Source: Candidatus Woesearchaeota archaeon (GTDB lineage Archaea; Nanobdellota; Nanobdellia; SCGC-AAA011-G17; GW2011-AR20). From it: DNA of 56,306 nt. Under the pieces are notes generated by a model that did no database searches, was not told where the DNA came from, and saw only the letters and a list, made by a program, of their open reading frames with translations. Both the position numbers and the translations under genes were made by a program. The stretch covers positions 1 through 56,306 of the forward strand of contig JACQNJ010000022.1 in the NCBI GenBank assembly GCA_016203115.1, read 5' to 3'. Every line of letters starts with the position of its first letter. Within the stretch, counting starts at the first letter, position 1. This document shows, piece by piece, positions 3,862-21,012 of the stretch.

Positions 3862-4269
3862 TTAATTCCTTGCTTTTTCTAATTCTTTTTTTAATTCATT
3901 CATTTCTATTAGTTTAACTGAATCATTAAAACACATTACACAAATTCTGTATTTTTTATTTAAATTTTCTTTATCTTCTACAATACCTATTATCGGCTTG
4001 TTTTTTGCGTGGGCATAACCGAGCTCCCATGCTGTTCCAGAAGAGATTCCTTGCCAATCTAACAAAGCTATCATGAAATCGCACCAGTCTATCATGTCTC
4101 TATCTTTCTTGAATATTGGCAAAGGGTCTATGCCTTCTTCATAGATTCCTGCATCTCTATGAGGCAAGAATGTTTCCATTCCTAAAGCCTTGCAAATCTT
4201 ATCTATTTCTTCTACTTTAACCCTGTCTTTAATATCCCAGAGCTTTCCTGCAATATAGACTTTTTTCAT
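3862..4269 (-). CDS. nucleoside 2-deoxyribosyltransferase-like (NDT/Rcl fold) protein
   Basis: MKKVYIAGKLW at the N-terminus and SSGTAWELGYAHAKNKPIIG match the family pattern (YxAGxxF ... D/S-xGTxxExGyAxaxxKP). Confidence 0.6.
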   Translation of the reverse strand: MKKVYIAGKLWDIKDRVKVEEIDKICKALGMETFLPHRDAGIYEEGIDPLPIFKKDRDMIDWCDFMIALLDWQGISSGTAWELGYAHAKNKPIIGIVEDKENLNKKYRICVMCFNDSVKLIEMNELKKELEKARN

Positions 4270-4320
4270 GTTTATAGGTTTAAAAGCTACTTTTAAAAGT
4301 GTTATTATTTATTAAAGAAT

Positions 4321-7170: not shown

Positions 7171-7726
7171 GGCAATTTTTTTAGACAGGGACGGCACAAT
7201 AAATGTTGATGTCGAATATGTTCATAATATAGAAGATTTAAGATTTGAAGAAGGTGCTATTGAAGGATTAAGACTATTACAAAATCTTCGTGAATATAAA
7301 CTCATTATTATTACAGGGCAATCTGGAATTGGAAGGGGGTATTATACTGAAGATGATTATCACAGGTTTATGGATGAGATGTATAGGCAATTCAGGTTAA
7401 ACGGAATTGTAATAGACGGAGAATATTTCTGCCCCCATCATCCTGAAAAAGGTAAAGGAATATACAGAATTGATTGTGAATGCAGAAAACCAAAAATAGG
7501 AATGTTAGAGCAAGCTGCCAGAGAGTTTGGAATAGATTTATCGAAAAGCTGGGTTATTGGAGATAAAACAGATGATATTGAAATGGGAAGGATAGCTGGA
7601 TGCAGAACAGTGTTAGTTAGAACTGGAAAAGGTGGAAAAGATGGTAATTTTAGTATTACTCCAAATTATACTGCAGATAATTTATTAGATGCAGCAAGAT
7701 ACATTTTTGAGAATAGCCAGAGATAG
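7163..7726 (+). CDS. gmhB: D,D-heptose 1,7-bisphosphate phosphatase (HAD-IIIA)
   Basis: FLDRDGTIN (HAD motif I), the Zn-loop CPHHP...C-E-CRKPKIGML, and GDKTDDIEMG. Confidence 0.85.
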   Translation: MNRAIFLDRDGTINVDVEYVHNIEDLRFEEGAIEGLRLLQNLREYKLIIITGQSGIGRGYYTEDDYHRFMDEMYRQFRLNGIVIDGEYFCPHHPEKGKGIYRIDCECRKPKIGMLEQAAREFGIDLSKSWVIGDKTDDIEMGRIAGCRTVLVRTGKGGKDGNFSITPNYTADNLLDAARYIFENSQR

Positions 7727-8453: not shown

Positions 8454-10004
8454 ATGCTGTCCTTTGAAGAAAGAAAAAAAATAATTAGTGACTGGTTTAA
8501 AGATAAGTACAATATATTATTTGCAGTTATTTTACTTTTTGCTTTTATTTTGAGAATAAAGTATTTTGATATTAATGCATTATCTTTATGGTGGGATGAG
8601 GCTACATATTTGGCTTCTGGAAGATACTGGGCTTTTGGAGAGACATTATGGGCTGTTGAGGCTGCTAGACCCCCATTTTTTATGGTGTTAATAGCTTTGT
8701 TCTTCAAGCTTGGATTTAATGAGTTAATGGTAAGATTCTTCACTGTTGTTGTTCCTTCGCTGTTTATTGTTTTTTTTACTTATTTATTGGGAAAAGAACT
8801 TTATGACAAAAAAGTTGGGTTGATTGCTGCCTTATTAGCCAGCGTTTCATGGATGTTTTTGGTTAATATTGCAAGGGCGCATTCTGATTTATTGGCTGGT
8901 GCTTTAGGATTGGCTGCCATTTACTTTTTCTGGAAAGGATATGTAACTGAGGAAAAGAAAAATACTTTTTATTTATTTTTAACTGGAATATTTTTAGGTT
9001 TAGGATTTATGACTAGACTGTCAAATCTACTTATTATAGGGATTATAGGGATTTATTTAATTATTACAGAGCAGTATAGATTTCTTAAACACAAGCAAAT
9101 CGGGTATGCTGGGCTATTTACTTTTTTAGCTGTTCTGCCTTATCTTATCTGGAGCAAGTTTCATTATGGAAATTTTCTGGCTTGGCTAGGACAATATGGA
9201 GCGGGAGCAGAGGCAGCGGCTGCTAAACCTCTAGCATGGAATGTTTTTTCTGTGATTAAAATCTACCTATCCCCTTCGCTATTTTTTACTTCTGGACAAG
9301 ACTACATATTTTATATTTTATTTTTTGTTGGATTGGTTATTAGCTTGAAGTTTCTTTTAGGTATTGATATAGTTGTCAAAAATAAAAGCAAAGAATTGAA
9401 CGCTGATTTGATGACTATTTTAATGATTCTTGTCACCATTCTGTTTTTTGTGGTTATACAAAGGGATATAGGAGATCCGAGGTGGCAGATGTTTGCTGCT
9501 CCTGCGATATTTTTAGTTGTTGCCAGAGGGATAGTTTGGATATATGAAACTTTCAAAAAGCATTCTTCAATAGCTGTTGTTACAATTTTAGGAATTTTAT
9601 TGTTTATTGGGTCTGTCTCTCAGATTGCACAGGCTAGTGCTATTTTAAATGGTCAGAAAAATGATCAAGCAGGTATTAAAAGCGCTGCGGAATGGATTAA
9701 AGCTAATAGCCAAAAAGGACAATGGGTTTTAAGCAATAATATTCATGCTGAGATGACTTATTGGGCTGATAGACCTACGAGAAGTTTTGGTCTTTATGAT
9801 AATGGAACATTTGAAGTTATTAATGAGCTGAAACCTGCTTATTTAGTTGTTACTGGGTACTTTCAATCTTTACCTTGGACTTATGAATATCCTGGAAAAT
9901 ATCCTGAAAGATTTGAGCCTGTTGCTGCATTTGATGCTGAAGGAAAACCTATTACAAACCAAGAACAGAGACCTATTATTATGGTTTATAAGATTAAATA
10001 TTAA
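8454..10004 (+). CDS. GT-C fold membrane glycosyltransferase (GT39/GT83, ArnT/PMT-like)
   Basis: 516 aa with >10 predicted TM segments. The first-loop motif LWWDEATYL is typical of the PMT_2/ArnT family. A soluble C-terminal domain follows. Confidence 0.75.
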   Translation: MLSFEERKKIISDWFKDKYNILFAVILLFAFILRIKYFDINALSLWWDEATYLASGRYWAFGETLWAVEAARPPFFMVLIALFFKLGFNELMVRFFTVVVPSLFIVFFTYLLGKELYDKKVGLIAALLASVSWMFLVNIARAHSDLLAGALGLAAIYFFWKGYVTEEKKNTFYLFLTGIFLGLGFMTRLSNLLIIGIIGIYLIITEQYRFLKHKQIGYAGLFTFLAVLPYLIWSKFHYGNFLAWLGQYGAGAEAAAAKPLAWNVFSVIKIYLSPSLFFTSGQDYIFYILFFVGLVISLKFLLGIDIVVKNKSKELNADLMTILMILVTILFFVVIQRDIGDPRWQMFAAPAIFLVVARGIVWIYETFKKHSSIAVVTILGILLFIGSVSQIAQASAILNGQKNDQAGIKSAAEWIKANSQKGQWVLSNNIHAEMTYWADRPTRSFGLYDNGTFEVINELKPAYLVVTGYFQSLPWTYEYPGKYPERFEPVAAFDAEGKPITNQEQRPIIMVYKIKY

Positions 10005-11111: not shown

Positions 11112-12635
11112 CTAAGCTAAATCATCCTCATCTTTAATGAATACAGAACTAACTTTTTGATTGACTAAATTTTTAACAATTTTAGCACTATACCTAATTT
11201 CTTCAAGAGACCTATTTTTTGTTAAAACATTATCCATAATAAATCTCGGGCTTGTCAAGGATTTCATTTTGTGGCTCATAAATTCTGCATAAGCCTGCCT
11301 TTGTATCTCTTGTAATTGGCTTCCAGTAAAGTAATGTGTTCTGTATTGAGATGCACCTAAGCTACTTGACCCTTTTATTCCTTCGTCAAGCAAGCCTTCT
11401 TTTTCAAACCTCTCATAAAGAGGAGTTCCAGCATAAGGCTGAGCTACATAAAATTGTGCAAAATCTAATCCTGAACTTTTAGCAAATTCAATTGTATCTC
11501 TAATGTGTTTTTTAGTTTCATGTGGAAATCCAATAAGAAAAGTTGAGCAAGTCCAGATACCAAGTTTATGACAAGTTTTTATTATTTTTTTAGCATACTT
11601 TAAGTTTATAGGCTTGTCAATATATTTCAGAGTTTCTTCATTTCCTGATTCAATCCCAAAAATGGCCAAGTAATAACCAGCTTTCTTCATTAAAGTTAAT
11701 ATTTCCTCATTTAGAGTCCAAATAGCAATACCATTAGGTGTATACCACTTAATGTCCAGCTTTCTTTTTATTATTTCTTCACAGATTTCCTTTATTCTTT
11801 TAGAAGAAACAGCTAGATTGTCATCTTGAATTCTGAATTGCCTTACATTATAATTTTTAACTATATGCTCTATTTCATCTACTACATTCTTAGGGGATCT
11901 ACTTCTCCAAACCCTTCCCCATACTGTAAAAATTGAGCAGAAGGAGCAGTGTTGAGGACAACCCCTGCTTGTGATAATATCCGTGCTTCTTTCTCTCATT
12001 GCCCATAAAATGCTATCAGGATGTTTAATATAACGCTCCATAGGCAATAGATGGCGAGCTGGAAATGGAAGTTCATCTAAATTTTTTATGAATTCTCTGG
12101 GCTTGTTTTTTATTGGACCTTCTTTACCTCTAATTATTGTTCCTTCTATTTCTGTTAAAGATTCTTTATTTTCATATTTTGAAACTACTTCATTAAATGT
12201 AAATTCACCTTCTCCATAAACGATAAGATCAACATTTGGATTTTTTAATACTGATGAAGGATTTGCTGAGGAATGAGCCCCCCCAAAAACAACTAAGCAA
12301 TTTGGATTGAGTTTTTTAGCCAAATCTGCTATTTCAAAAGCATCCTGCTCATAAGCTGTGTAACCACAGTTAATACCCACAACATCAGGCATAATTTCTT
12401 TCATTCTTTTTTCTATTTCTGGATAGTCTAAACCAACATGATACATGTTTTTTCCTATTTTTTTAACTTGATCATAATATGCCAGAGCATCTATAATCCT
12501 GACAAAGAAGCCTTGTTTTTCTAGGTATGCTGCCAAGTAAGCTGCACCTAAAGGAATTTTTACATTTCTGATTCCTGCTCTTAAATCACCTCTTAATGGA
12601 GGAATTACAAAAAGAACTCTTGTCTTTTTATTCAT
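11112..12635 (-). CDS. B12-binding-domain radical SAM enzyme (class B)
   Basis: N-terminal Rossmann-like B12-binding region (VLFVIPP...VVGINCGYT...VVFGGAHSS...VYGEGE), followed by the CxxxCxxC motif SRGCPQHCSFCS. Confidence 0.85.
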   Translation of the reverse strand: MNKKTRVLFVIPPLRGDLRAGIRNVKIPLGAAYLAAYLEKQGFFVRIIDALAYYDQVKKIGKNMYHVGLDYPEIEKRMKEIMPDVVGINCGYTAYEQDAFEIADLAKKLNPNCLVVFGGAHSSANPSSVLKNPNVDLIVYGEGEFTFNEVVSKYENKESLTEIEGTIIRGKEGPIKNKPREFIKNLDELPFPARHLLPMERYIKHPDSILWAMRERSTDIITSRGCPQHCSFCSIFTVWGRVWRSRSPKNVVDEIEHIVKNYNVRQFRIQDDNLAVSSKRIKEICEEIIKRKLDIKWYTPNGIAIWTLNEEILTLMKKAGYYLAIFGIESGNEETLKYIDKPINLKYAKKIIKTCHKLGIWTCSTFLIGFPHETKKHIRDTIEFAKSSGLDFAQFYVAQPYAGTPLYERFEKEGLLDEGIKGSSSLGASQYRTHYFTGSQLQEIQRQAYAEFMSHKMKSLTSPRFIMDNVLTKNRSLEEIRYSAKIVKNLVNQKVSSVFIKDEDDLA

Positions 12636-12656
12636 TTTATTCTATAAACATTAGTC

Positions 12657-13631
12657 CTATATAAGTTTTCTGAATTTATCTTGAATCCATACCTTTCCAT
12701 AAATTAATGTTATTAGGAAAACAGATGGAGCATGCAATAGCCATGCTTTTTCTTTTGTTTTTAAATAATTATTAACAGAAACGATAAAATTCGGCAATAT
12801 TGTTAATGATTTTATCAGGAACAGAATAAATATTCTGTATTCATTAAATGTTCTTGGCTCCCATGAATAATTTCTGTTTTCAATGTTCTTAGACCTCTGA
12901 TGCGCTGCCCAGTAATGCCTTTTTCTTAAAAATTGGGAAAATGAAGTTACTGTTGCATGGTGTGTATAAGCATGTTTTGGTATTGCCAACTTGTTTTTTT
13001 CTTTTTCTGCTAATCTGTAAATCATTTCTACATCCTGAGTATAGCCCCCAATGTCATCTAAAAGTTTTTTTCTTACTATGAAACAATTGCCTCCAGTACA
13101 TAAGCAATTTTCAGTTTTTATTTTGTAGGTATAGTATTTTTCTTCATCCTTTAATTTGATTTTATTTAAAGCCATTCTTCCTTCTATAGATCTATAAACT
13201 GCAAAAGGATCTGTACCGACCAAACTTAAGTATCTATTAGTGATATTATCCTCTTTTTTTACTTTTAATTTGCAAGCTACACCAAAAATTTCTTTGTCTT
13301 TCGTTAAAGGCTCAACCATGTTTAAAAGCCAAGAAACGCCTTGAACTTCATTGTCCTGGTCTACAAATGCTATTAATTCATTTTTTGCTTTTTGAACTGC
13401 CTGATCTTTTCCCATGCCCTTGCCCTCAGGGAATCTTTTTTTATTATGCAAAAGTTTAACAGGATATTTTTTTAGTAATTCCAAAGTTCCATCTGTGCTT
13501 CCACCATCTATTGTGATAATTTCAATCTTGTTTTTCGGGTATTTTTGAGAGAGAATTGAGTCTAAACAGCGTTTTACAAGAACCTTATCATTATAAGTTG
13601 GGATAATAAAACTAATTGTTGGCAATTTCAT
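12657..13631 (-). CDS. GT2-family glycosyltransferase
   Basis: SFIIPTYNDKVLVKRCLDSILSQ, DGGSTDGT and AFVDQDN. Confidence 0.8.
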   Translation of the reverse strand: MKLPTISFIIPTYNDKVLVKRCLDSILSQKYPKNKIEIITIDGGSTDGTLELLKKYPVKLLHNKKRFPEGKGMGKDQAVQKAKNELIAFVDQDNEVQGVSWLLNMVEPLTKDKEIFGVACKLKVKKEDNITNRYLSLVGTDPFAVYRSIEGRMALNKIKLKDEEKYYTYKIKTENCLCTGGNCFIVRKKLLDDIGGYTQDVEMIYRLAEKEKNKLAIPKHAYTHHATVTSFSQFLRKRHYWAAHQRSKNIENRNYSWEPRTFNEYRIFILFLIKSLTILPNFIVSVNNYLKTKEKAWLLHAPSVFLITLIYGKVWIQDKFRKLI

Positions 13632-13655
13632 ATGAATAATAGAAAAATAAGAATT

Positions 13656-14786
13656 TTAATGCTTTCTATGGGTTAATTTCTGCACTATTGGTATTTTGTT
13701 GATGAATTTGTATTTCTCATAAAGAACGCTTTCATTTACACCACAGGATGCGCAAATGCCCACTCTTTTTTTGATTAATTGCTTTCTGAATGCTTGAGCT
13801 TTTTCATTGTTCCATATTTTCATGAAAGGCTCCTCAAAAACATTGCCAAAGACTATTTCATTTTCAGCGTAAAAATCACATGGGCATACATTGCCATCCC
13901 AGGTAATATAAGGGGTATACCAAGGCAAGAAGCATGCTGACATCATATTATGGCCTTTATTTACACTTTCCCCTTTAATATTTTCAAAGTTATAGAGGAA
14001 GTTAACTAAGTTTCCTATTCTCACCTCAGTCTTTATTTCCTTCAATGCCTCTATAGTTTCTTTCCTTACTTTTTTAACATCTTCTGGAGAGCAAGAATCC
14101 AAGCCAATCTCTTTATTTTCATTCATGCCTAAACGAATAACGAAAGTTCCATTTATTGAATCAACCCCAATCTTGTCTGCCCATCTTAGATATTCTGGAA
14201 GCTGCATTAAGTTTTCCTGCTGGACAACCATGAAAGTATGGATTTTCGTGTCTTCTTTTTTCAATTCTTTCTTTAATTTGACAAAGTCTTCTGTATTTTT
14301 AATAACTGTTTCAAAATTTGCCCTTACTCTTATTTTTTCAAATGTTTCTTTTTTCATGCCATCAATTGAAATTGATAATATGCTAGGAGAAGCATTTAAC
14401 ATCTTTATTCCATTTTCCCTGTTCAATAAAGTAGCATTTGTATCAATCTTTACAAATGTTCTTTTTGATCTTGCATGCGTGATTATTTTAAAGATGTCTT
14501 TATTAAGGAAAGGTTCTCCTATTCCTGTTAAGTTTAAGTAACAGGGATAAATCTGGTCAAAAATATGCCTGTAGTTTTCATAGGATAAAGACCCTATTGG
14601 CCTCTTCAAACCAACTCCATGTGGGCACATGTTACATCTTAAATTGCAAACAGTTGTGTTTTCTAGTTTCAACTTAAATGGTGTTGGAGCTGTTGGAGCG
14701 GAGCGCATTGCATACCATGCATTTTCTAGGACTCTCTGTGGATACCTCCATGAAATACTTCTCCTAAGAATATGAGTATATAGCAT
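13656..14786 (-). CDS. radical SAM enzyme with C-terminal SPASM/twitch-type Cys-rich domain
   Basis: TTVCNLRCNMCPHG (CxxxCxxC) and GIGEPFL. The C-terminal Cys cluster is CFLPW...GNVCPCDF...GICASCG. Confidence 0.8.
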   Translation of the reverse strand: MLYTHILRRSISWRYPQRVLENAWYAMRSAPTAPTPFKLKLENTTVCNLRCNMCPHGVGLKRPIGSLSYENYRHIFDQIYPCYLNLTGIGEPFLNKDIFKIITHARSKRTFVKIDTNATLLNRENGIKMLNASPSILSISIDGMKKETFEKIRVRANFETVIKNTEDFVKLKKELKKEDTKIHTFMVVQQENLMQLPEYLRWADKIGVDSINGTFVIRLGMNENKEIGLDSCSPEDVKKVRKETIEALKEIKTEVRIGNLVNFLYNFENIKGESVNKGHNMMSACFLPWYTPYITWDGNVCPCDFYAENEIVFGNVFEEPFMKIWNNEKAQAFRKQLIKKRVGICASCGVNESVLYEKYKFINKIPIVQKLTHRKH

Positions 14787-15640
14787 TATTTATTTAACCC
14801 CTTTATAAAACTCATAGGTTTATAATTTAAATCTCTTTCTGCAGGCTTTATACTTCCTGTTGTGCCAGATTTAACGCTTAATACAAAGGTTCTCTTTAAT
14901 GGAAAATTTTTAGTTACTAGAGAACCTATTGAGCTTATAGGCAAGCAGATGGACAAAGGTATATGAACTTTTCGCTTTCTAATGTTATATTTTTTACAAA
15001 CTGTATCTATAAACTCATTAAAGGTTAATTCTGTTTTTCCTAGGATATCATATGCTTTATTTATGGATTTCTTGTTGTTAATGCATGAGAGAATAGCGTT
15101 TACTACATCGTCTACATGAACCGGCCTGAATTTGTATTCTCCATCCCCCACAATAGGGATTACTTTAAACTTGTGGAGAAAACTCAACAATTTTTCCATG
15201 CTGTTGCTGTCTTTCCCATAAATGAAAGATGGCCTTAAAATTGTGAGCTCCAAACCAGAGTTTAGCAGTAATCTTTCTGCTTCTGATTTGCTTTTACCAT
15301 AATCATCCAGATGTGTTTTTGTGGATGCCATAGAACTTACAAAAATTATCCTTCTTACTTTATTTTTTTTGCAGGCTTCTATAAGATTCCTTGTTCCTTC
15401 TACGTTGACTTTTTGATATTCTTCCTTGTCCTTAGGGTCTATCGCAGCTGCTAAATGGATAACAACTTTTGCATTTTTAGTAAATGATTCTAATGCCTTT
15501 TTATCTGCAAGATCTCCTTTAGTAATATTTACTTTAAATCTAGGATATTCTTTTCTAATCAGGCATTTTACTGGTTTTCCTTTTAACTTTGCTATCAAAT
15601 GCCTTCCCAGAAACCCTGTTGCCCCTGTTATGGCGATCAT
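14786..15640 (-). CDS. NAD-dependent sugar epimerase/dehydratase (extended SDR)
   Basis: MIAITGATGFLGRHL (GxxGxxG) and YGKSK (YxxxK). Confidence 0.8.
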   Translation of the reverse strand: MIAITGATGFLGRHLIAKLKGKPVKCLIRKEYPRFKVNITKGDLADKKALESFTKNAKVVIHLAAAIDPKDKEEYQKVNVEGTRNLIEACKKNKVRRIIFVSSMASTKTHLDDYGKSKSEAERLLLNSGLELTILRPSFIYGKDSNSMEKLLSFLHKFKVIPIVGDGEYKFRPVHVDDVVNAILSCINNKKSINKAYDILGKTELTFNEFIDTVCKKYNIRKRKVHIPLSICLPISSIGSLVTKNFPLKRTFVLSVKSGTTGSIKPAERDLNYKPMSFIKGLNK

Positions 15641-17043
15641 CTTGCAGATACAGTTAAAAATTCTTTTAATTTGAAAGTAAATTTATTATTTTTGAAATGG
15701 TCGAAAAATTGATCGTACATTTGCCTTCTTAAGAAGAATCTTTGCTGATTGATGAAGTATCTTGTCTGCTCATATGCATTTTCTTTGTAGAATTCACTCC
15801 ACAAAACTGAGATAGGAACTTTTGAAATATTTGCATGATGGCCTAGAACTCCAAAAGTGACATATTCTTTTAATGATTTTGGCATTTCCAATTTGTGCTC
15901 CCTCAAGCATAAATCAAAATAAGGTGTGCCGGGAAAAGGCCTGTAAATTTGCAATAAATTCTGATCTGCTGAAATCCCTTTCATGAATTTTTTTGTTAAG
16001 TTTATTTCTCCTAAAGTTTCATCTGGGTGCCCCATCATGTAGGTAACTGTAACCATAACTCCACTGTCTCTAAGTTTTTTAGTGATTTTTTTTGCCTTTT
16101 CTAAGTTTATGGTTTTGCCGAGCATTTTCTGGATTCTTGGGCTTCCTGACTCGCAGCCAAGCATTATTCCTTCACAGCCTGCATCTGCGATTAAATCCAC
16201 CATTTTTTCTGTCATGACGTCAAACCTGCTTACTGTGTGCCATCCAACTTTTCTTCCTGATTCTTTTATCTCTTTTACAAACTGCTCTGTAAATGACTGA
16301 TTAGTTAAATGCATGTCCCCTCCAACATCCATTCTTGAAATATGCTTTTTCGTCAAGCTTTTTACATAATCAAACTGCTCTAGAATCCTTTTAGCACTTA
16401 TATTCCTGAATTTTCCACCGTAACTTTTTACATCTTCATTTGCATGATGACAGAAGCCGCATTTGTAAGGACAACCACGATTTGATTCTAGCAAAACGTA
16501 ATTGTGCTTAGAATAAGGAAAATATTTGTCTATATCTTTGATTAAATCCCATGCAGGCATAGGCTTTGATTCTATGTCTATAAATTTGTCCTGTGGGGGA
16601 GTTATTTTTACTTTTCCATTTATTTTTAATCCCATTCCTTTTGGTTCTTGAGCATTTCCATTAAGATAAGCTAAATATTCTTCTAATGCATATTCTCCTT
16701 CCCCTATTATTACTGCGTCTATTGTTGGGTGGCTTAATGTTAAATGAGGCAAGATAGTTGAGTGAGGACCTCCCCATACAACTTTTTTACCAAGCTCCTT
16801 AGCAATGTCACTTACCATTATTGCTCTTGTTAATCCTGGACCCGTTAGAACCCCTACAGCTACTAAGTCTGGATTGAATTTAGAAATATCTTTTTTTACC
16901 TTATCTTTTGTTATTTTCAATCCAGAATAGTCTATTACAGATACATCAAACCCCTTTTCCCTTATATAAGAGGCTACGCTGATTATACCTAATGGAGGGT
17001 AAGCTCCAAATTCAGTTGCAGGAGCAATAAAGAGAATTTTCAT
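15637..17043 (-). CDS. B12-binding-domain radical SAM enzyme (class B), second copy
   Basis: KILFIAP...LVAVGVLTGPG...VVWGGPHST...IIGEGE, followed by SNRGCPYKCGFCHH. Confidence 0.85.
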   Translation of the reverse strand: MKILFIAPATEFGAYPPLGIISVASYIREKGFDVSVIDYSGLKITKDKVKKDISKFNPDLVAVGVLTGPGLTRAIMVSDIAKELGKKVVWGGPHSTILPHLTLSHPTIDAVIIGEGEYALEEYLAYLNGNAQEPKGMGLKINGKVKITPPQDKFIDIESKPMPAWDLIKDIDKYFPYSKHNYVLLESNRGCPYKCGFCHHANEDVKSYGGKFRNISAKRILEQFDYVKSLTKKHISRMDVGGDMHLTNQSFTEQFVKEIKESGRKVGWHTVSRFDVMTEKMVDLIADAGCEGIMLGCESGSPRIQKMLGKTINLEKAKKITKKLRDSGVMVTVTYMMGHPDETLGEINLTKKFMKGISADQNLLQIYRPFPGTPYFDLCLREHKLEMPKSLKEYVTFGVLGHHANISKVPISVLWSEFYKENAYEQTRYFINQQRFFLRRQMYDQFFDHFKNNKFTFKLKEFLTVSAR

Positions 17044-17073
17044 GAAGATATCAGCATTAAAAGCTATTTAAAT

Positions 17074-17970
17074 CTATTTCTTTAGCATTGAATAGAGTAT
17101 GCCTAATCCGTAAGAAAGGTGGATGGAGAGGAAAATAAAGGGGAGTATTGGGAAGTAGAGAATATTTTTTCTTAAAGAAATTGATAATGAAAATATAATG
17201 GCTATGAGTGTATAAAGAGCAAGAGGAAATAAAAATATTTTGTGGATTAAACCCAAAGGGATTACTAAGAGGAAGTATATAGTAAACAAAGGCGGGATGA
17301 GAAAAACTATGCCTATCTTCTTTTTGTTTATTCTTTCTTTTAATACTCTTACTTGGCCATACCGAAAGATTTGCTTGCAGAAAAGGTAATAATCACTTCT
17401 TCTTCTGTGATATATTATAAGAGAAGGAGAGAAGGCCACTTTTATCCCATTTTGCTTCATTCTAGTTATTAATTCCGGATCTTCTCCTGGAAACAACAGA
17501 GGATCAAAACCTTTTATTCTTTTGAACACTTTTCTTCTCACAAAAAAGTTTGCTGAAGTTAAGCTGTCTTCATCTGCATCAAGATTTAACTCTCCTGTTT
17601 TGTACCTGTTTCTCATTGTATACGCACCGAAAAATGAAGAAAGGGCATGCCCTGTAGCTTTGGCAAAGAACCCATCATTTTGAGGCGTTAATTGCGGACC
17701 ACCAACTACATCTATTTCTTTGTGATTATTAAAAAATTCCTCTGCATTTTTAAGAATATTTTTATCAACTATAGCGTCATCATCAATGAAAGCTATTATC
17801 TCCCCTTTTGCTTTTTGTATCCCCTTATTGCGGTTTTCAGATGGATTTTTTCCTGTTTCAACTATGATCTCATATTTTTTAGGGTCATAGCCTGTTGATT
17901 TTAAAGAATCTAGAACTTCTATTTTCCTCTCTGGCGCCAAAGCTATGACTATTGAAAATTTATATGACAT
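17074..17970 (-). CDS. GT2-family glycosyltransferase with C-terminal TM segments
   Basis: FSIVIALAPE..., AFIDDDA, and a hydrophobic C-terminal ~90 aa. Confidence 0.8.
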   Translation of the reverse strand: MSYKFSIVIALAPERKIEVLDSLKSTGYDPKKYEIIVETGKNPSENRNKGIQKAKGEIIAFIDDDAIVDKNILKNAEEFFNNHKEIDVVGGPQLTPQNDGFFAKATGHALSSFFGAYTMRNRYKTGELNLDADEDSLTSANFFVRRKVFKRIKGFDPLLFPGEDPELITRMKQNGIKVAFSPSLIIYHRRRSDYYLFCKQIFRYGQVRVLKERINKKKIGIVFLIPPLFTIYFLLVIPLGLIHKIFLFPLALYTLIAIIFSLSISLRKNILYFPILPFIFLSIHLSYGLGILYSMLKK

Positions 17971-18712
17971 TTTTTACCTTGTTGTATAGTGTTACGATAA
18001 ACTTGAATCGAGAATAGATCAGTCTTAACCTGATAATTGCGAGAAACATTTCAAAGATTGTTTTGAGATTTAAATGGGAGCCTCCTGGCTCGTTCCAGAC
18101 AGTGGGAATCTCTTTTGTCTTGAAATGATTTCTTTTTATTGCATACAGCAAGTTTACGTCAAACGCCCATCCTGTTGTTTTGCCCATGCTTGGCAATATT
18201 GCTTTTACCACATGCTTTTTAAATAACTTTGCACCACATTGTGTATCCTTAATCTTTAAATTGAAAAATACATTCACTAAAATGTTAAATGCCCTGCCTG
18301 CAATTATTCTTGTGAGAGGCTGGCGATGATCCATTTTTGCGCCTTTTATCCATCTAGATGCTATGATTGCGTCATAATCCTTAATATTTTTCACTAGATC
18401 GTAGAATGCACCTGGTTTTGTAGCCAAATCCGCATCTACAAACCCAATTAAATCTGATTCTACTCTTTTAAATCCTTCAAGAACTGCTGCCCCCTTGCTT
18501 GCAACTTTTCCTACATCAATATATTTTATTTCTTTGTTTTTCCTTGCTATCTGAGAAACAACACTTAGTGTATTGTCTGTACATCCGTTAATAACAACCA
18601 GGATTTCAAAATTTATTTTTCCTCTTAAATAGTTTATATACTCTTGCAAGGTCTTTAGAATTCTTTTTTCTTCATTGTATGCAGGTATAATTATTGATAG
18701 ATTAGTATTCAT
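17960..18712 (-). CDS. GT2 dolichyl-phosphate hexosyltransferase-like (DPM1/Alg5-like)
   Basis: LSIIIPAYNEEKRI, NGCTDNT and GFVDADLATKP. Confidence 0.8.
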   Translation of the reverse strand: MNTNLSIIIPAYNEEKRILKTLQEYINYLRGKINFEILVVINGCTDNTLSVVSQIARKNKEIKYIDVGKVASKGAAVLEGFKRVESDLIGFVDADLATKPGAFYDLVKNIKDYDAIIASRWIKGAKMDHRQPLTRIIAGRAFNILVNVFFNLKIKDTQCGAKLFKKHVVKAILPSMGKTTGWAFDVNLLYAIKRNHFKTKEIPTVWNEPGGSHLNLKTIFEMFLAIIRLRLIYSRFKFIVTLYNKVKNVI

Positions 18713-19967
18713 TCTTTCTCAAGATTGTTGTGATGAACATTGTGAGTGACATTGCAAATCCTATACCTATTAACAAATTTACTATTTGCAATAAGCTTGC
18801 GTGATAAAACCATATTAATACAGCTTCTGATAAACTGAAAAATCCTAAGATAAAAAGGAATTTAAGCCTATTTATAGAGAGATTGTACATTGATATAGCA
18901 TAGGTAAATGAAAATAAAAGCATAAAAACTGCGAATTTCCAGAGAATGTTTGCTGCATCAAGATAATCGCTTCCAAAGAAGATTTTTACTGCTATTTCCG
19001 GAATAAGGAAGTAAACTATGCACATTGGTACTCCTATAAGAGAAATCAGCAACAAGGATTTTGTTAGAAACTTTTTATAGGGCTTTTTTTGCTTATACAT
19101 TTCTGAAACTTTTGGGAACATTACCTGGGTTATTGCAATAGTTGCGAAGAATACAGTTTTGCCGATCAGAGAAACTGCTGCATAGTGGCCTGCAGAAGCT
19201 GAGTCAAAAAAATGCTTGACTAATAATATGTCAATGCTGTAAAAAGAGGTAAGAAGCAATAATGTCAGAGTTACAGGCAAAAGATATGCATAAACTGGTT
19301 TTAAAGAATATTTTTCTGCCTTATGAATCAAAATCTTTTTTAAAGGAAAGTATGTTATAAAAAAAGAGAACATAAATGCCAAGAATATCGCTAAAGCTGC
19401 TCCATTAACCCCTAACCCTATTATCACTAAGACTATACCTATTACTACTTTTGAAATTCCTTCAAATGTCATGTTTATTCCTAAATTCTTAAACCACTGC
19501 ATACCTTGCATTACCCCTCTTGATACTGGAAGAAGCAATGCGAAAACGAGAAATCCTCCTAAAATAATAACTGGTGTTACAGAAATATGAAGGAATGAAG
19601 CTATTGCCCTGCTAAGCAGAAGGTATATCACAAGCCCTATAACTGAGACAAGAAAAAAAGCTTTCATTGCGTTTACCAGTAAATATTTTACCTTTGGATA
19701 TTGCTTTTCTGCATTTAACTCTGAGACAAATTTTGTTAATGTTGTCTGGATTGTAACTGTTGGAACAACTAACAAGAATAGTAAAGACAATAGTGCACCT
19801 AAGACCCCGTAACTGCTTGGGCCTAATGCCCTGCCCATGTAAAAATGGAATACAAACCCCATTAGATTTAAAATCATTGTAGCTGTTAGCAGTATGATAC
19901 TGTCCCTTACTAAACTCTTGTCTTTTGAATATCCTTTTAATAAAATAGACTTAACTTTAGCTATCAC
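18702..19967 (-). CDS. MOP-superfamily oligosaccharide flippase (Wzx-like)
   Basis: 421 aa with ~12 TM segments. Sits between the initiating phosphotransferase and the GT genes. Call is based on composition and topology only. Confidence 0.65.
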   Translation of the reverse strand: MIAKVKSILLKGYSKDKSLVRDSIILLTATMILNLMGFVFHFYMGRALGPSSYGVLGALLSLLFLLVVPTVTIQTTLTKFVSELNAEKQYPKVKYLLVNAMKAFFLVSVIGLVIYLLLSRAIASFLHISVTPVIILGGFLVFALLLPVSRGVMQGMQWFKNLGINMTFEGISKVVIGIVLVIIGLGVNGAALAIFLAFMFSFFITYFPLKKILIHKAEKYSLKPVYAYLLPVTLTLLLLTSFYSIDILLVKHFFDSASAGHYAAVSLIGKTVFFATIAITQVMFPKVSEMYKQKKPYKKFLTKSLLLISLIGVPMCIVYFLIPEIAVKIFFGSDYLDAANILWKFAVFMLLFSFTYAISMYNLSINRLKFLFILGFFSLSEAVLIWFYHASLLQIVNLLIGIGFAMSLTMFITTILRKNEY

Positions 19968-20951
19968 TTAGATCACCCACACCAAACCTGCAAAAGCTAA
20001 TTCTATAAGCATGATAAGATAGACTACCTGCTTTTCTGTAAACTTTCCTTTTATTGTAAAAAAATGAGGGATTGAATAAATTTTGTCATAGAGAGACTTT
20101 ACTTTTCCGTTTTCATAAAATCCATAACTCTGTTTTTTGAACCTGCCCCTAGATTTCAAGAAAAACTCTATGAAGAAAGGTATTGAAACTATTAATGCTG
20201 CTTTTTCTATGTTACCTACAATTGCTATTGTTGCAAGTGCTGCACCTAAGAAATAAGTTAATGAATCTCCAGGAAAGATTTTCGCAGGATACTTGTTGTA
20301 ATAATAGAATGCCAGCAAAGCTGCGAATGTTACTGCTGCAATTAATGCTGCTAAATGCCTGGTGTTAATATATGCATATAAACCCAGATTTCCTATGTAA
20401 ATCAGGCCTAAACCTGCTTCTAAACCGTTAAATCCTGCTAACAGATTCACCATATTTGAAGAGCCTATGAATATTAAAGGAATTAAAATTAAAGGATAAA
20501 TCAAACCAAAATCAACTTCACCTATAAATGGAAACCACATTATGGAAGTACCGGCATTAACGACCATTAAAGGAAGCGCTCCTGCCGCCGTCAATAAAGG
20601 CTTCTGCCATTGTTTTAACCCAGAAGACCTGTCTTTTGATCTATTAATTAACAAATCGTCAATAAAACCTACTAGAGTAACAAGCAAAAGAGAGGTTACT
20701 GATGCAAAAGTTAAAAGCAATGGAGAAGTATCTTTGTAGAAAAATGTTTGAATAAAAATATAACTCATTAACCCTCCTATGGCTCCTCCTACAACAACTA
20801 GGCCTGCTGAAACCGGGACAAGGGGCTTGTCTTGCTTATTCTGGTCTTTTACTACTAAGCCAATATTCTTCAGATATTTTATTAATCTTGGAATAAAGAA
20901 CAACACTATAGCAAATGCAATTAATGCCCCTATTATAGGTATTATTCTCAT
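19968..20951 (-). CDS. UDP-HexNAc:polyprenyl-phosphate HexNAc-1-phosphate transferase (GPT/WecA/MraY superfamily, AglH-like)
   Basis: LVGFIDDL and NMVNLLAGFNGLEAG motifs in a polytopic membrane protein. Confidence 0.8.
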   Translation of the reverse strand: MRIIPIIGALIAFAIVLFFIPRLIKYLKNIGLVVKDQNKQDKPLVPVSAGLVVVGGAIGGLMSYIFIQTFFYKDTSPLLLTFASVTSLLLVTLVGFIDDLLINRSKDRSSGLKQWQKPLLTAAGALPLMVVNAGTSIMWFPFIGEVDFGLIYPLILIPLIFIGSSNMVNLLAGFNGLEAGLGLIYIGNLGLYAYINTRHLAALIAAVTFAALLAFYYYNKYPAKIFPGDSLTYFLGAALATIAIVGNIEKAALIVSIPFFIEFFLKSRGRFKKQSYGFYENGKVKSLYDKIYSIPHFFTIKGKFTEKQVVYLIMLIELAFAGLVWVI

Positions 20952-21012
20952 GAAGAAAGACCTTAGAAGTAGTTATAAAAACATTTCGAAAAGCGTTTAG
21001 AATTATCTAGTC

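What the first reader, a model, noticed from the sequence alone, without database searches (positions are those of the whole stretch)
11112..20951. Nine-gene lipid-linked glycan operon with two B12-radical-SAM enzymes and a SPASM radical-SAM enzyme
All nine ORFs are co-directional on the minus strand, and most are joined by overlaps or gaps of 30 nt or less. The junctions are 19967/19968, 18702-18712, 17960-17970, ATGA at 15637-15640 and TAATG at 14784-14788. The gene order is GPT/AglH-like initiating phosphotransferase, MOP flippase, DPM1/Alg5-like GT2, GT2, B12-rSAM, SDR epimerase/dehydratase, rSAM-SPASM, GT2, B12-rSAM. Three radical SAM enzymes embedded in a self-contained glycan-assembly operon is not a described archaeal N-glycosylation (agl) layout. 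There are precedents for radical SAM chemistry on sugars. Class B enzymes C-methylate aminoglycoside sugars (for example GenK), and BtrN-type enzymes with auxiliary clusters oxidise aminocyclitols. These make unusual C-methylated or otherwise radical-modified sugars on the cell surface a reasonable hypothesis.
Basis: partly seen in the sequence, partly recalled or inferred. Interest (0 to 1): 0.65.

Follow-up and report, generated by a model that had tools for sequence, protein, structure and literature searches.

The report
Archaeal glycan operon with radical enzymes
A tiny groundwater archaeon carries a gene cluster, conserved in its relatives, that builds sugar chains on a membrane lipid carrier and includes three radical-chemistry enzymes, which probably make unusual modified sugars for the cell surface by reactions nobody has yet characterised.

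Summary
Nine minus-strand genes lie at exactly the stated coordinates, every junction is 30 nt or less, and all nine domain calls hold.

The cluster is not a chance juxtaposition. The order g9-g8-g7-g6-g5-g4-g3-g2 recurs in at least eight other DPANN contigs (Woesearchaeota, Pacearchaeota, Nanoarchaeia) at 30-83% protein identity. In seven related loci the oligosaccharyltransferase AglB/STT3 lies beside or inside the cluster. The window itself has no AglB.

The conserved unit is larger than reported. It also includes a PMT_2 GT-C transferase (8454-10004) and a heptose/glycosyltransferase block (349-7726).

None of the three radical SAM proteins reaches the cut-off of any curated family:
- g5 and g3 form tight, DPANN-restricted subfamilies.
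- g3 is a four-cysteine BtrN-type "twitch" enzyme, not a full SPASM.
- Fold searches cannot separate methylase from non-methylase for g1 and g5.

My best reading is that the three enzymes and the coupled SDR tailor sugars, most likely while the sugars are lipid-linked, before a GT-C enzyme or AglB transfers them. This is inference. The main rivals are tailoring of nucleotide sugars and Gms/Gmm/Grs-like lipid modification.

I found no literature describing this layout. I rate it a new variant of a known kind, of moderate to high interest.

The parts
19968..20951 (-). g9: initiating polyprenyl-phosphate sugar-1-phosphate transferase (AglH/Alg7/DPAGT1-like), about 9-10 TM segments
   Evidence: Pfam Glycos_transf_4 at 7.8e-33. 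The best solved relative is human DPAGT1 at 2.6e-16, ahead of MraY. A TATA-like TTTTTATAA lies about 25 nt upstream of the ATG.
18702..19967 (-). g8: MOP/Wzx-type flippase candidate, about 10-12 TM segments
   Evidence: Pfam Polysacc_synt_3 at 4.5e-19, plus Polysacc_synt and MatE. It has a GTG start 3 nt after a GGTGATC Shine-Dalgarno-like motif and abuts the g9 stop.
17960..18712 (-). g7: polyprenyl-phosphate monosaccharide synthase (DPM1/GtrB/ArnC-like GT2), soluble
   Evidence: Pfam GT2 at 8e-27. The best solved relatives are Pyrococcus Dol-P-Man synthase 5mlz at 1.4e-17, GtrB and ArnC.
17074..17970 (-). g6: GT2 with about three C-terminal TM segments
   Evidence: Pfam Glyco_tranf_2_3 at 4.8e-16. 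It always sits directly upstream of g5 in relatives.
15637..17043 (-). g5: B12-binding-domain radical SAM enzyme from a DPANN-restricted subfamily
   Evidence: Pfam B12-binding at 6.5e-20 and Radical_SAM at 6.8e-21. The CX3CX2C motif is C191/C195/C198 and WGGPH is invariant. No NCBIfam cut-off is reached. Orthologues are 42-89% identical, then identity drops sharply to 30% or less. The AF2 model has pLDDT 88.8 and its fold lies equally far from MgmA, AprD4 and TsrM.
14786..15640 (-). g4: NAD(P)-dependent SDR, translationally coupled to g5 (ATGA) and to g3 (TAATG)
   Evidence: Pfam Epimerase at 1.2e-29 and 3Beta_HSD at 5e-28. It carries TGATGFLG and Y114-x3-K118. The best NCBIfam matches are HpnA and OleD. 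The best solved relatives are NDUFA9 at 2.6e-17 and NSDHL, well ahead of GalE and MoeE5 at about 7e-9.
13656..14786 (-). g3: radical SAM enzyme with a BtrN-type twitch domain carrying one auxiliary 4Fe-4S cluster
   Evidence: The CX3CX2C motif is C47/C51/C54. Only C285, C303, C345 and C348 are invariant in the C-terminal domain. They align to BtrN C169/C187/C232/C235 with a profile E-value of 7e-15. None of 96 family members has the full SPASM CX2CX5CX3C motif.
12657..13631 (-). g2: GT2 with a C-terminal TM segment
   Evidence: Pfam GT2 at 9e-26. It follows g3 in the window and in L002-L006 and L164.
11112..12635 (-). g1: B12-binding-domain radical SAM enzyme, a neighbour of the HpnJ/SD1168/BchE group
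   Evidence: Pfam Radical_SAM at 2e-24 and B12-binding at 2.6e-19. NCBIfam scores are Sden_1168 227/575, HpnJ 201/578 and BchE 184/481, none passing. The CX3CX2C motif is C226/C230/C233. The AF2 model has pLDDT 90.8 and the top fold hit is MgmA at 6e-25. Orthologues lie next to PMT_2 in 7 of 8 loci. Some are fused to a class I methyltransferase.
8454..10004 (+). PMT_2-family GT-C glycosyltransferase (AglS/ArnT/Pmt-like), about 10 TM segments. It is a conserved partner outside the reported coordinates.
   Evidence: Pfam PMT_2 at 3.9e-18. A PMT_2 gene lies convergent to the end of the g5-g2 block in L003, L004, L005, L006, L163 and L164, and next to g1 in L001, L002, L083 and L084.
5851..7726 (+). 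Heptose activation genes: heptose-7-phosphate kinase fused to a cupin (5851-7170) and GmhB phosphatase (7163-7726)
   Evidence: NCBIfam rfaE_dom_I scores 346.2 against a cut-off of 345. GmhB scores 178.9/178 and 165.8/149.6. The same genes flank the cluster in L003.
349..5424 (.). Syntenic accessory block: GT1-family GT (349-1497, +), QueC-like (1522-2424, -), GT2 (2509-3435, +), NUDIX (3427-3858, -), Nuc_deoxyrib_tr-like (3862-4269, -) and GT9 heptosyltransferase-like (4321-5424, +)
   Evidence: Pfam results are. The same genes, in similar order, adjoin the cluster in L002, L006 and L165.
20952..21012 (-). 61-nt spacer upstream of g9 containing a TATA-like box. It is a candidate promoter and operon start.
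   Evidence: Read directly from the sequence. This is weak evidence in a 33% GC genome.

Best explanation
The nine genes are the core of a conserved DPANN locus that assembles a polyprenyl(dolichyl)-phosphate-linked glycan for cell-surface protein glycosylation.

**Assembly steps (homology-supported).**
- g9 (DPAGT1/AglH-like) starts a lipid-PP-linked chain.
- The GT2 enzymes g6 and g2 extend the chain.
- g8 is the flippase.
- g7 (Dol-P-Man-synthase-like) makes a lipid-P-monosaccharide donor.
- The adjacent PMT_2 GT-C enzyme uses that donor on the outer face. This parallels AglD/AglR/AglS, GtrB/GtrA/GtrC and ArnC/ArnT.
- AglB is encoded next to the cluster in most relatives and elsewhere in this genome. 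It transfers the finished glycan to protein.

**Tailoring steps (inferred).** The soluble trio g5 (B12-domain rSAM), g4 (SDR) and g3 (BtrN-type twitch rSAM), together with g1 (B12-domain rSAM), are oxygen-independent sugar-tailoring enzymes. They act on the cytoplasmic face, most likely on sugars already attached to the lipid carrier.
- g3 abstracts a sugar hydrogen and oxidises or epimerises a secondary alcohol, as BtrN and HygY do.
- g5 with its coupled reductase g4 performs a radical dehydration followed by keto-reduction (AprD4/AprD3-like deoxygenation), or alternatively a cobalamin-dependent C-methylation.
- g1 is paired with PMT_2. It C-methylates or rearranges the lipid-P-sugar that PMT_2 transfers, as MoeK5 or HpnJ would.

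The exact reactions are unknown.
For: **Shown.**
- The ORFs and tight junctions are confirmed.
- All domains are confirmed.
- g9 is nearest to DPAGT1. g7 is nearest to Dol-P-Man synthase, GtrB and ArnC.
- By hydropathy, g9, g8, g6, g2 and PMT_2 are membrane proteins, and g1, g3, g4, g5 and g7 are soluble.

**Synteny.**
- The order g9-g8-g7-g6-g5-g4-g3-g2 followed by a convergent PMT_2 is kept in L003 (63-83% identity), L004, L005, L006, L163 and L164. It is partly kept in L002 and L165, down to 30-48% identity.
- STT3/AglB is adjacent to or inside the cluster in L002, L004, L005, L006, L164, L165 and the 388-kb contig of P0004.
- L165 also carries Alg13/Alg14.

**Evidence that the rSAMs act on sugars.**
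- The g3 twitch cysteines align one-to-one with BtrN.
- Distant bacterial g3-like genes (25-31% identity) lie next to GT-like genes in 37 of 65 loci of at least 8 kb.
- Of all 76 bacterial g3-like loci, GmhB-like genes are nearby in 12 and GT9 genes in 7.
- One example is HldE-GT9-GT2-carbamoyltransferase-GT2-rSAM-MTase-GT2-GT9 in L016.
- g1 paralogues lie next to GT-like genes in 26 of 45 loci. L146 carries GT2, GT1 and two NDP-sugar 4,6-dehydratases.

**Evidence for a lipid-linked stage.**
- The SDR is closest to membrane- or lipid-facing SDRs (NDUFA9, NSDHL, HpnA, OleD) rather than GalE-type enzymes.
- The nine genes include no nucleotidyltransferase and no NDP-sugar dehydratase.
- In L164 the g7 orthologue is fused to a methyltransferase. 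The same locus has a GT2 / Polysacc_deac_1 / rSAM-SPASM / PMT_2 set that mirrors ArnC/ArnD/ArnT.
- g1 orthologues neighbour PMT_2 in 7 of 8 loci.

**Published precedents.**
- rSAMs act on lipid-linked sugars in HpnJ and Cds (PMC13459092, PMC9204698).
- AprD4 works with an NADPH reductase partner, AprD3 (PMC5461906).
Against: - There is no AglB in this 56-kb window. Its closest relative L003 also has Top6A rather than STT3 upstream.
- No rSAM here passes any curated family threshold. The best named matches for g5 are protein or peptide modifiers: ApyD at 121 bits and the MgmA family at 108 bits.
- Foldseek ranks MgmA, AprD4, TsrM, OxsB and TokK almost equally for both g1 and g5, so the chemistry is unresolved.
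- The g5-AprD4 sequence match covers only the rSAM core. AprD4 lacks cobalamin (PMC12931638), whereas g5 has a significant B12-binding-domain match.
- The same enzyme mix (twitch/SPASM rSAM plus B12-rSAMs) modifies archaeal membrane lipids in the Gms/Gmm/Grs system (PMC11214058).
- The GT-neighbourhood frequencies have no matched background control.
- No transcript, glycan or lipid data exist; only DNA runs from groundwater were found.
Confidence: 0.42

Rival explanations
1. The pathway is the same, but the radical SAM enzymes and the SDR act on soluble nucleotide-activated (or phosphorylated) sugars before glycosyl transfer. DesII, GenK-type enzymes and classical NDP-sugar tailoring work this way. 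One candidate substrate is the heptose made by the neighbouring HldE-kinase and GmhB genes.
For: - g1, g3, g4 and g5 are all soluble.
- Heptose-7-P kinase and GmhB pass curated cut-offs 4-6 kb away.
- Bacterial g3-like genes repeatedly sit beside GmhB, HldE and GT9 genes.
- A g1 paralogue in L146 sits beside two NDP-sugar 4,6-dehydratases.
- The g3 profile also hits DesII and BlsE, which act on nucleotide-linked sugars.
Against: - The nine-gene unit contains no nucleotidyltransferase and no NDP-sugar enzyme.
- The SDR is only 284 aa and is much closer to NDUFA9, NSDHL, HpnA and OleD than to GalE-type enzymes.
- The tailoring genes are wedged between membrane-anchored GT2s, next to PMT_2.
- L164 shows a Dol-P-sugar-synthase-methyltransferase fusion and an ArnC/ArnD/ArnT-like set.
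Confidence: 0.2
2. The radical SAM enzymes and the SDR modify lipid rather than sugar. The target would be the isoprenoid carrier or scavenged membrane lipids, through methylation, cross-linking, cyclisation or saturation. This is analogous to the archaeal Gms (SPASM/twitch), Gmm (B12-rSAM) and Grs (B12-rSAM) cluster or to HpnP/HpnR. They would sit in the glycan locus because the lipid carrier is its substrate.
For: - Gms/Gmm/Grs have the same enzyme-class mix and cluster together in archaea, with some DPANN homologues reported (PMC11214058).
- The SDR is nearest to lipid-facing SDRs: NDUFA9, NSDHL, OleD and HpnA.
- g1 scores against HpnR and the ladderane lipid B12-rSAM at about 133 bits.
- The g3 profile weakly hits GDGT-MAS 7tol at 6e-7.
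Against: - g3 fails the published Gms criteria. It is 376 aa against a minimum of 400 aa and has no roughly 100-aa N-terminal extension.
- g3 scores only 79.5 bits against an AhbD cut-off of 500, whereas Gms is 36% identical to AhbD.
- g3 has a four-cysteine twitch rather than a full SPASM (PMC11214058).
- None of nine loci carries Tes, Grs or any lipid-synthesis gene in the cluster. The rSAM genes are interleaved and translationally coupled with GTs.
- Bacterial relatives of g3 and g1 sit in glycan, heptose and NDP-sugar clusters.
- The complement of extra rSAMs varies between genomes together with GTs and PMT_2 copies, as expected for glycan tailoring.
Confidence: 0.18
3. The radical SAM enzymes modify a peptide or protein rather than the glycan. 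Candidates are RiPP-like maturation or side-chain methylation or cross-linking of the surface glycoprotein.
For: - The best named NCBIfam matches for g5 are the RiPP enzyme ApyD and the MCR glutamine C-methyltransferase family.
- The top fold hit for g1 and g5 is MgmA.
- SPASM/twitch enzymes are commonly peptide maturases; CteB and SkfB are among the g3 profile hits.
Against: - All these scores are far below cut-off.
- There is no conserved precursor-peptide gene, leader-binding (RRE) domain, protease or exporter in nine loci.
- The only orphan ORF (10767-11111) has no family and is absent from the closest relative L003.
- The strongest specific match for g3 is the sugar/cyclitol enzyme BtrN.
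Confidence: 0.07
4. Chance juxtaposition: the radical SAM genes are functionally unrelated passengers in a long co-directional gene run.
For: The minus-strand run extends well beyond the cluster into housekeeping genes.
Against: - All eight junctions are 30 nt or less, and two are coupled start/stop overlaps.
- The same order is kept in at least eight other contigs, down to 30-48% identity, across three DPANN lineages.
Confidence: 0.03

Closest known systems
Archaeal N-glycosylation (agl) clusters, for example Haloferax volcanii AglJ/G/I/E plus AglD (Dol-P-Man synthase), AglR (flippase), AglS (Dol-P-Man mannosyltransferase) and AglB (my knowledge of the published pathway)
   Same: Both have lipid-phosphate-linked assembly, GT2 enzymes, a MOP-type flippase, a DPM1-like Dol-P-sugar synthase, a PMT-like GT-C enzyme that adds a sugar from Dol-P-sugar, and AglB adjacent to the cluster. 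AglB adjacency is seen in seven related loci.
   Different: Known agl clusters tailor sugars with class I methyltransferases, dehydrogenases and epimerases. No described cluster contains radical SAM enzymes, and none was found in the literature searches. This cluster uses a DPAGT1-like initiating enzyme. AglB is absent from this window.
Tailoring of lipid-linked monosaccharides before GT-C transfer: ArnC/ArnD/ArnT (lipid A Ara4N) and DprE1/DprE2 with Emb/Aft (decaprenyl-P-arabinose) (my knowledge)
   Same: A GT2 makes a polyprenyl-P-sugar, the sugar is modified while on the lipid (deformylation, or oxidation plus SDR reduction giving epimerisation), and a GT-C enzyme then transfers it. g7 is nearest to ArnC, GtrB and DPMS. 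L164 has a GT2 / Polysacc_deac_1 / PMT_2 set.
   Different: Here the proposed tailoring catalysts are radical SAM enzymes rather than a deacetylase or a flavoenzyme. The substrate stage has not been shown.
AprD4/AprD3 (apramycin C3'-deoxygenation)
   Same: A radical SAM enzyme with an N-terminal Rossmann-like domain is paired with an NAD(P)H reductase (PMC5461906). AprD4 is the best sequence hit for g5 in the PDB at 8e-21 and has the highest TM-score, 0.70/0.72. g5 and g4 are coupled by an ATGA overlap.
   Different: The NCBIfam AprD4 model gives 87 bits against a cut-off of 500, and the match covers only the rSAM core. AprD4 does not bind cobalamin (PMC12931638), whereas g5 has a clear PF02310 match. 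I did not compare AprD3 with g4.
BtrN (2-deoxy-scyllo-inosamine dehydrogenase) and other carbohydrate twitch rSAMs such as HygY (my knowledge)
   Same: Both have CX3CX2C plus a single auxiliary cluster. The four g3 cysteines align to BtrN C169/C187/C232/C235, and both have the CX12GX4C...CX2C pattern.
   Different: Overall similarity is low (E 7e-15, mostly in the twitch domain). g3 is about 100 aa longer and has an extra 80-residue linker region. Its substrate and reaction are unknown.
HpnJ, calditol synthase Cds and MoeK5: radical SAM enzymes acting on sugars that are already lipid-linked
   Same: HpnJ contracts the glucosamine ring of a hopanoid-linked sugar, and Cds makes calditol on GDGT (PMC13459092, PMC9204698). 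MoeK5 C-methylates in moenomycin biosynthesis (PMC9204698); that its substrate is a lipid-linked sugar is from my own memory. The second-best named family for g1 is HpnJ at 201 bits, and the best for the SDR is HpnA.
   Different: All scores are well below equivalog cut-offs. The carrier here would be a glycosylation carrier lipid, not a membrane lipid or antibiotic.
Gms/Gmm/Grs archaeal GDGT-modifying radical SAM cluster (PMC11214058)
   Same: Both combine one SPASM/twitch rSAM with B12-binding rSAMs, clustered in archaea.
   Different: g3 lacks the COG4001-type N-terminal extension, is shorter than 400 aa, is only distantly AhbD-like and has a four-cysteine twitch. The context here is GTs, AglB and PMT_2, not lipid genes.

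Membership tests
Archaeal N-glycosylation (agl) locus | Oligosaccharyltransferase AglB/STT3 present | tested here: not met
   No STT3 homologue is found anywhere in the 56-kb window (Pfam; blastp with the L006 STT3). The feature is met in seven related loci: L002, L004, L005, L006, L164, L165 and the contig of P0004.
Archaeal N-glycosylation (agl) locus | Initiating polyprenyl-P sugar-1-P transferase, a flippase candidate and glycosyltransferases in one cluster | tested here: met
   PF00953 at 7.8e-33, with DPAGT1 as the best PDB hit. Polysacc_synt_3 at 4.5e-19. Three GT2 proteins.
Archaeal N-glycosylation (agl) locus | The product is an N-linked glycan on surface proteins | not testable with these tools
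   This requires glycoproteomics. Only groundwater DNA runs hold the sequence.
Cobalamin-dependent (class B) radical SAM enzymes | N-terminal B12-binding Rossmann domain plus a CX3CX2C radical SAM core | tested here: met
   g1: PF02310 at 2.6e-19, PF04055 at 2e-24, cysteines C226/C230/C233. g5: PF02310 at 6.5e-20, PF04055 at 6.8e-21, cysteines C191/C195/C198. The folds match MgmA, TsrM, OxsB and TokK.
Cobalamin-dependent (class B) radical SAM enzymes | Actual cobalamin binding and methyl transfer | not testable with these tools
   AprD4 has a related fold without cobalamin (PMC12931638). Foldseek does not separate it from true B12 enzymes.
Named B12-rSAM equivalogs (HpnJ, BchE, SD1168/PhpK P-methylases, HpnR, MgmA, ApyD, BzaD, KedN5) | Score above the curated NCBIfam cut-off | tested here: not met
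   g1: 227/575, 201/578, 184/481. g5: 121/750, 108/360, 108/578.
AprD4 family radical SAM diol dehydratase | NF033070 score of at least 500 over the full length | tested here: not met
   g5 scores 87 bits, covering residues 151-380 only. g1 scores 74 bits.
BtrN-type twitch radical SAM enzymes | A single auxiliary 4Fe-4S cluster ligated by four cysteines in a truncated SPASM (CX9-15GX4C ... CX2C) | tested here: met
   C285-x12-G298-x4-C303 ... C345-x2-C348 are invariant in 25 sequences and align to the BtrN ligands. Of 96 family members, 91 keep CX9-16GX4C.
BtrN-type twitch radical SAM enzymes | Overall orthology to BtrN and dehydrogenase activity | tested here: inconclusive
   The profile E-value is 7e-15, driven by the twitch domain; the core domain contributes only about 16 bits. 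The NCBIfam N_Twi_rSAM score is 91/170. Activity was not tested.
Full SPASM radical SAM enzymes (two auxiliary clusters) | Seven-cysteine motif including CX2CX5CX3C | tested here: not met
   The motif is absent in all 96 g3-like proteins. The Pfam SPASM hit covers only the shared first half of the motif.
GMGT synthase Gms (PMC11214058) | AhbD-like, at least 400 aa, with a roughly 100-aa COG4001 N-terminal lipid-binding extension | tested here: not met
   g3 is 376 aa and its rSAM core starts at residue 44. It scores 79.5/500 against AhbD. No extra Pfam domain is detected. COG4001 itself was not searched.
Polyprenyl-phosphate glycosyltransferase plus GT-C pair (DPMS/AglD-AglS, GtrB-GtrC, ArnC-ArnT) | A DPM1-like GT2 and a PMT_2/ArnT-like multi-TM GT-C enzyme in one locus | tested here: met
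   g7 is nearest to 5mlz DPMS at 1.4e-17, GtrB and ArnC. The PMT_2 match is 3.9e-18, with about 10 TM segments. The pairing is conserved across loci.

The most novel reading that the evidence does not exclude
DPANN archaea use a dedicated set of oxygen-independent radical SAM enzymes to remodel sugars while they are attached to the dolichyl-phosphate carrier. The set comprises two B12-domain enzymes, one BtrN-type twitch enzyme and a coupled SDR. The reactions could be C-methylation, deoxygenation, epimerisation or even carbocycle formation. This would give N- or O-linked surface glycans containing sugar types not yet seen in any protein glycosylation system. It would also make surface glycosylation in these host-dependent cells depend on scavenged cobalamin.
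Probability: 0.3. Interest if true: 0.8.

Novelty: new variant of a known kind. Interest (0 to 1): 0.6.

Why it matters
- Protein glycosylation pathways in all three domains are thought to tailor sugars with polar (two-electron) enzymes. Radical SAM chemistry on sugars is known almost only from antibiotic and lipid head-group pathways.
- A conserved, AglB-linked cluster with three radical SAM enzymes would extend that chemistry to a core cell-surface process.
- It would define two new radical SAM subfamilies (g5-type and g3-type) with a clear genomic handle for substrate discovery.
- It would predict novel sugars on the surfaces through which DPANN archaea contact their hosts.
- It would link surface biogenesis in these reduced-genome organisms to cobalamin and iron-sulfur supply.
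- The wider bacterial relatives, in heptose/GT clusters and in arrays of B12-rSAMs beside GTs, suggest the phenomenon is not confined to DPANN.

Tried and rejected
1. **Curated family assignment (NCBIfam).** No rSAM, SDR or GT in the nine genes reaches an equivalog cut-off, so no function can be transferred.
2. **Structure prediction plus Foldseek for g5 and g1.** The models are confident, but the top hits (MgmA, AprD4, TsrM, OxsB, TokK) are equidistant at 15-20% identity and TM 0.6-0.7. This cannot discriminate methylase, dehydratase or rearrangement chemistry, or cobalamin binding.
3. **'g5 is an AprD4 orthologue'.** Rejected. The match covers only the rSAM core, the score is 87/500, and g5 has a genuine PF02310 match.
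4. **'g3 is a two-cluster SPASM peptide maturase'.** Rejected on the cysteine pattern.
5. **'g3 is Gms'.** Rejected on the published criteria (PMC11214058).
6. **Metagenome scan with the g1 alignment.** It was useful for context, not for a census.
7. **PMT_2 and g6 against solved structures.** There were no or negligible sequence hits.
8. **RNA evidence.** Only DNA runs from groundwater hold the sequence, so co-transcription could not be tested.
9. **Sigma-70 promoter and terminator scan.** Not used, because the organism is an archaeon. TATA-like and oligo-T tracts seen by eye are weak evidence at 33% GC.
10. **Direct comparison with GrsA, Gmm, Cds, MoeK5 or AprD3.** Their sequences could not be obtained with the tools available, so no comparison was made.

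Full report
**Observation.** One search lists nine minus-strand ORFs at exactly the reported coordinates. I number them g9 (19968-20951) down to g1 (11112-12635).

In gene order, the junctions are 0 nt, an 11-nt overlap, an 11-nt overlap, a 30-nt gap, a 4-nt overlap (ATGA), a 1-nt overlap (TAATG), a 24-nt gap and a 21-nt gap. I verified these on the sequence. The flanking gaps are larger, at 61 nt upstream and 414 nt downstream. The GTG start of g8 follows a GGTGATC Shine-Dalgarno-like motif. A TATA-like TTTTTATAA lies about 25 nt upstream of the g9 ATG, but this is weak evidence at 33% GC.

Co-directionality by itself means little. The minus-strand run continues through adenylosuccinate lyase, topoisomerase VI A and B, MCM and a class I tRNA synthetase up to 38702. 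Those genes identify the organism as an archaeon. The nearest relatives of the cluster proteins are labelled Woesearchaeota, and the sequence occurs in groundwater metagenomes.

**Gene content.**
- g9 is closest to human DPAGT1 among solved structures (2.6e-16, ahead of MraY).
- g7 is closest to Pyrococcus Dol-P-Man synthase, GtrB and ArnC. It is therefore a polyprenyl-phosphate monosaccharide synthase.
- g6 and g2 are generic GT2 enzymes with C-terminal membrane segments.
- g1, g3, g4, g5 and g7 have no TM-like segments, so the radical enzymes work in the cytoplasm.
- g4 has the TGxxGxxG and YxxxK motifs. It is much closer to NDUFA9, NSDHL, HpnA and OleD than to GalE-type nucleotide-sugar enzymes.

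**The three radical SAM proteins.** All three have CX3CX2C. None reaches any curated NCBIfam cut-off.

| Protein | Best NCBIfam scores (bits / cut-off) |
|---|---|
| g1 | Sden_1168 227/575; HpnJ 201/578; BchE 184/481 |
| g5 | ApyD 121/750; MgmA family 108/360; HpnJ 108; AprD4 87/500 (core only) |
| g3 | Metalloenzyme-maturase family 124/400; N_Twi_rSAM 91/170; AhbD 79.5/500 |

g5 and g3 each form a tight orthologous group. g5 orthologues are 42-89% identical and g3 orthologues 40-93%. Nearly all named members are Woesearchaeota, Pacearchaeota or Nanoarchaeota. Beyond each group, identity drops abruptly to about 30-34%. g1 belongs to a much larger family.

In g3 only four C-terminal cysteines are invariant: C285, C303, C345 and C348. 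They align one-to-one with the auxiliary-cluster ligands of BtrN. None of 96 family members has the full SPASM CX2CX5CX3C motif. So g3 is a twitch enzyme with one auxiliary cluster.

AlphaFold models of g5 and g1 are confident, with pLDDT 88.8 and 90.8. Foldseek, however, places them about equally far from MgmA/QCMT, AprD4, TsrM, OxsB and TokK. The chemistry, and even cobalamin use, therefore cannot be read from the fold. AprD4 has a related fold without cobalamin (PMC12931638).

**Conservation.** I ran blastp of the window proteins against ORFs of fetched loci and used Pfam-annotated neighbourhoods. The block g9-g8-g7-g6-g5-g4-g3-g2 followed by a convergent PMT_2 GT-C gene recurs in the following loci.
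- L003: Woesearchaeota, 63-83% identity, with g1 also directly after g2.
- L004, L005 and L006 (Pacearchaeota).
- L163 and L164 (Nanoarchaeia).
- L002 (no flippase) and L165 (rearranged, no g4), with variations.

STT3/AglB lies directly upstream of g9 in L002, L005, L006, L164, L165 and the 388-kb contig of P0004. In L004 it lies at the other end of the cluster. L165 also has Alg13 and Alg14. The window has no STT3, and neither does L003.

g1 orthologues neighbour a PMT_2 gene in 7 of 8 loci. One of these, L001, lacks g5, g4 and g3, so g1-PMT_2 looks like a separate module. Further B12-rSAM and SPASM paralogues, methyltransferases and extra PMT_2 copies come and go between genomes. This is the pattern expected for glycan-tailoring genes.

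The conserved island also extends left of the reported region. GT1, a QueC-like gene, GT2, a Nuc_deoxyrib_tr-like gene, GT9, heptose-7-P kinase and GmhB are syntenic in L002, L003, L006 and L165.

**Evidence bearing on substrate.** Distant bacterial relatives of g3 (25-31% identity) lie beside GT-like genes in 37 of 65 loci of at least 8 kb. Among all 76 bacterial g3-like loci, 12 have a GmhB-like gene nearby and 7 a GT9 gene. L016 reads HldE-GT9-GT2-carbamoyltransferase-GT2-rSAM-methyltransferase-GT2-GT9.

g1 paralogues lie beside GT-like genes in 26 of 45 loci and often form arrays of two to four B12-rSAMs. L146 has GT2 and GT1 genes, a GT-C-like protein and two NDP-sugar 4,6-dehydratases. 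There is no matched background for these frequencies.

Four observations favour a lipid-linked stage.
- The SDR has lipid-type affinities.
- The nine genes contain no NDP-sugar enzymes.
- In L164 the g7 orthologue is fused to a methyltransferase.
- L164 also has an ArnC/ArnD/ArnT-like set with an rSAM inside it.

Published precedents exist for rSAMs acting on lipid-linked sugars, namely HpnJ and Cds (PMC13459092, PMC9204698). There is also a precedent for an rSAM dehydratase working with an NADPH reductase, AprD4/AprD3 (PMC5461906).

**Best explanation and rivals.** I commit to a model in which this is the core of a DPANN protein-glycosylation locus. The rSAM-SDR-rSAM trio and g1 tailor sugars in the cytoplasm, most likely on the lipid carrier, before flipping and transfer by PMT_2 and/or AglB (confidence 0.42). 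The assembly roles rest on homology and synteny. The tailoring reactions are inferred.

The rivals are:
- The same tailoring on nucleotide sugars, possibly heptose (0.20).
- Lipid or carrier modification like Gms/Gmm/Grs (0.18). g3 fails the published Gms criteria, but g1 and g5 could not be compared with Gmm or Grs.
- Peptide or protein modification (0.07).
- Chance juxtaposition (0.03).

**Comparison and novelty.** The locus works like an agl cluster with an AglD/AglR/AglS-type branch. Full-text searches found no paper combining radical SAM with AglB, archaeal N-glycosylation or DPANN glycosyltransferases in this sense. I therefore rate it a new variant of a known kind. The layout and the g5 and g3 subfamilies are undescribed, the biochemical class is known, and the reactions remain to be found.

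Noticed in passing
window 5851-7726 and 4321-5424: A DPANN archaeon encodes a bacterial-type heptose pathway. The heptose-7-phosphate kinase domain passes the rfaE_dom_I cut-off (346.2/345) but is fused to a cupin instead of the usual adenylyltransferase. GmhB passes its cut-offs. A GT9 heptosyltransferase-like gene lies nearby. No nucleotidyltransferase for heptose-1-P was seen in the window.
   Followed up: partly
window 1522-2424 (-): A QueC-like PP-loop ATPase has two N-terminal TM-like segments. It scores below the QueC cut-off (134.7/150.3). It is syntenic with the glycan locus in L002, L006 and L165, so it may amidate or otherwise modify a sugar rather than make preQ0.
   Followed up: partly
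window 23584-26760 and 31368-34532: Topoisomerase VI subunit B and MCM each carry an intein with a LAGLIDADG homing-endonuclease domain.
   Followed up: no
window 28593-29432 (-): An SLT-domain lytic transglycosylase (2.6e-24) is encoded in an archaeon. This may be relevant to interaction with peptidoglycan-bearing neighbours or hosts.
   Followed up: no
window 3427-3858, 5421-5819, 10107-10697; 3862-4269: Three NUDIX hydrolase genes and a nucleoside 2-deoxyribosyltransferase-like gene are scattered through the glycan island. The latter sits beside GT9 in L002, L006 and L165 as well.
   Followed up: partly
window 10767-11111 (+): An orphan ORF of about 100-114 aa lies convergent to g1 in the 414-nt spacer. 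Its composition is non-repetitive and it has no Pfam match. It is absent at the equivalent place in the closest relative L003.
   Followed up: partly
window 8022-8414 (+): A PIN-domain gene (a possible toxin of a toxin-antitoxin pair) is inserted between GmhB and the PMT_2 gene.
   Followed up: no
L164 3204-9055 and 11403-11981 (Nanoarchaeia GCA_028711165.1): The g7 orthologue is fused to a class I methyltransferase. A PMT_2 / Polysacc_deac_1 / rSAM-SPASM / GT2 set resembles ArnT/ArnD/ArnC with an added radical enzyme. A small methyltransferase is inserted between g5 and g4.
   Followed up: partly
P0022, P0036, P0037, P0040 (about 705 aa): g1 orthologues (51-53% identity) carry a C-terminal class I SAM methyltransferase domain at residues ~560-690. 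This is a Rosetta-stone link between the B12-rSAM and conventional methylation.
   Followed up: partly
L002 (JGI Ga0209202_1000025); P0089, P0305: Proteins of this locus are labelled 'Candidatus Paceibacterota bacterium' by one source. However, the locus has STT3, a DPAGT1-like gene and Pacearchaeota-like synteny. This is probably a taxonomic mislabel, so the cluster should not be claimed for CPR bacteria on this basis.
   Followed up: partly
L085-L162 (metagenome contigs): Many contigs carry arrays of two to four paralogous B12-binding radical SAM genes (27-40% identical to g1) next to GT2 and GT1 genes, SDRs and SPASM/twitch genes. Of 45 loci of at least 8 kb, 22 have two or more. This is a wider, uncharacterised pattern.
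   Followed up: partly
window 52890-55622 (+): A large fused N6-adenine methyltransferase / HSDR_N protein of 910 aa, of the type IIG/Eco57I-like restriction-modification kind, lies at the low-GC end of the window (28-29% GC).
   Followed up: no
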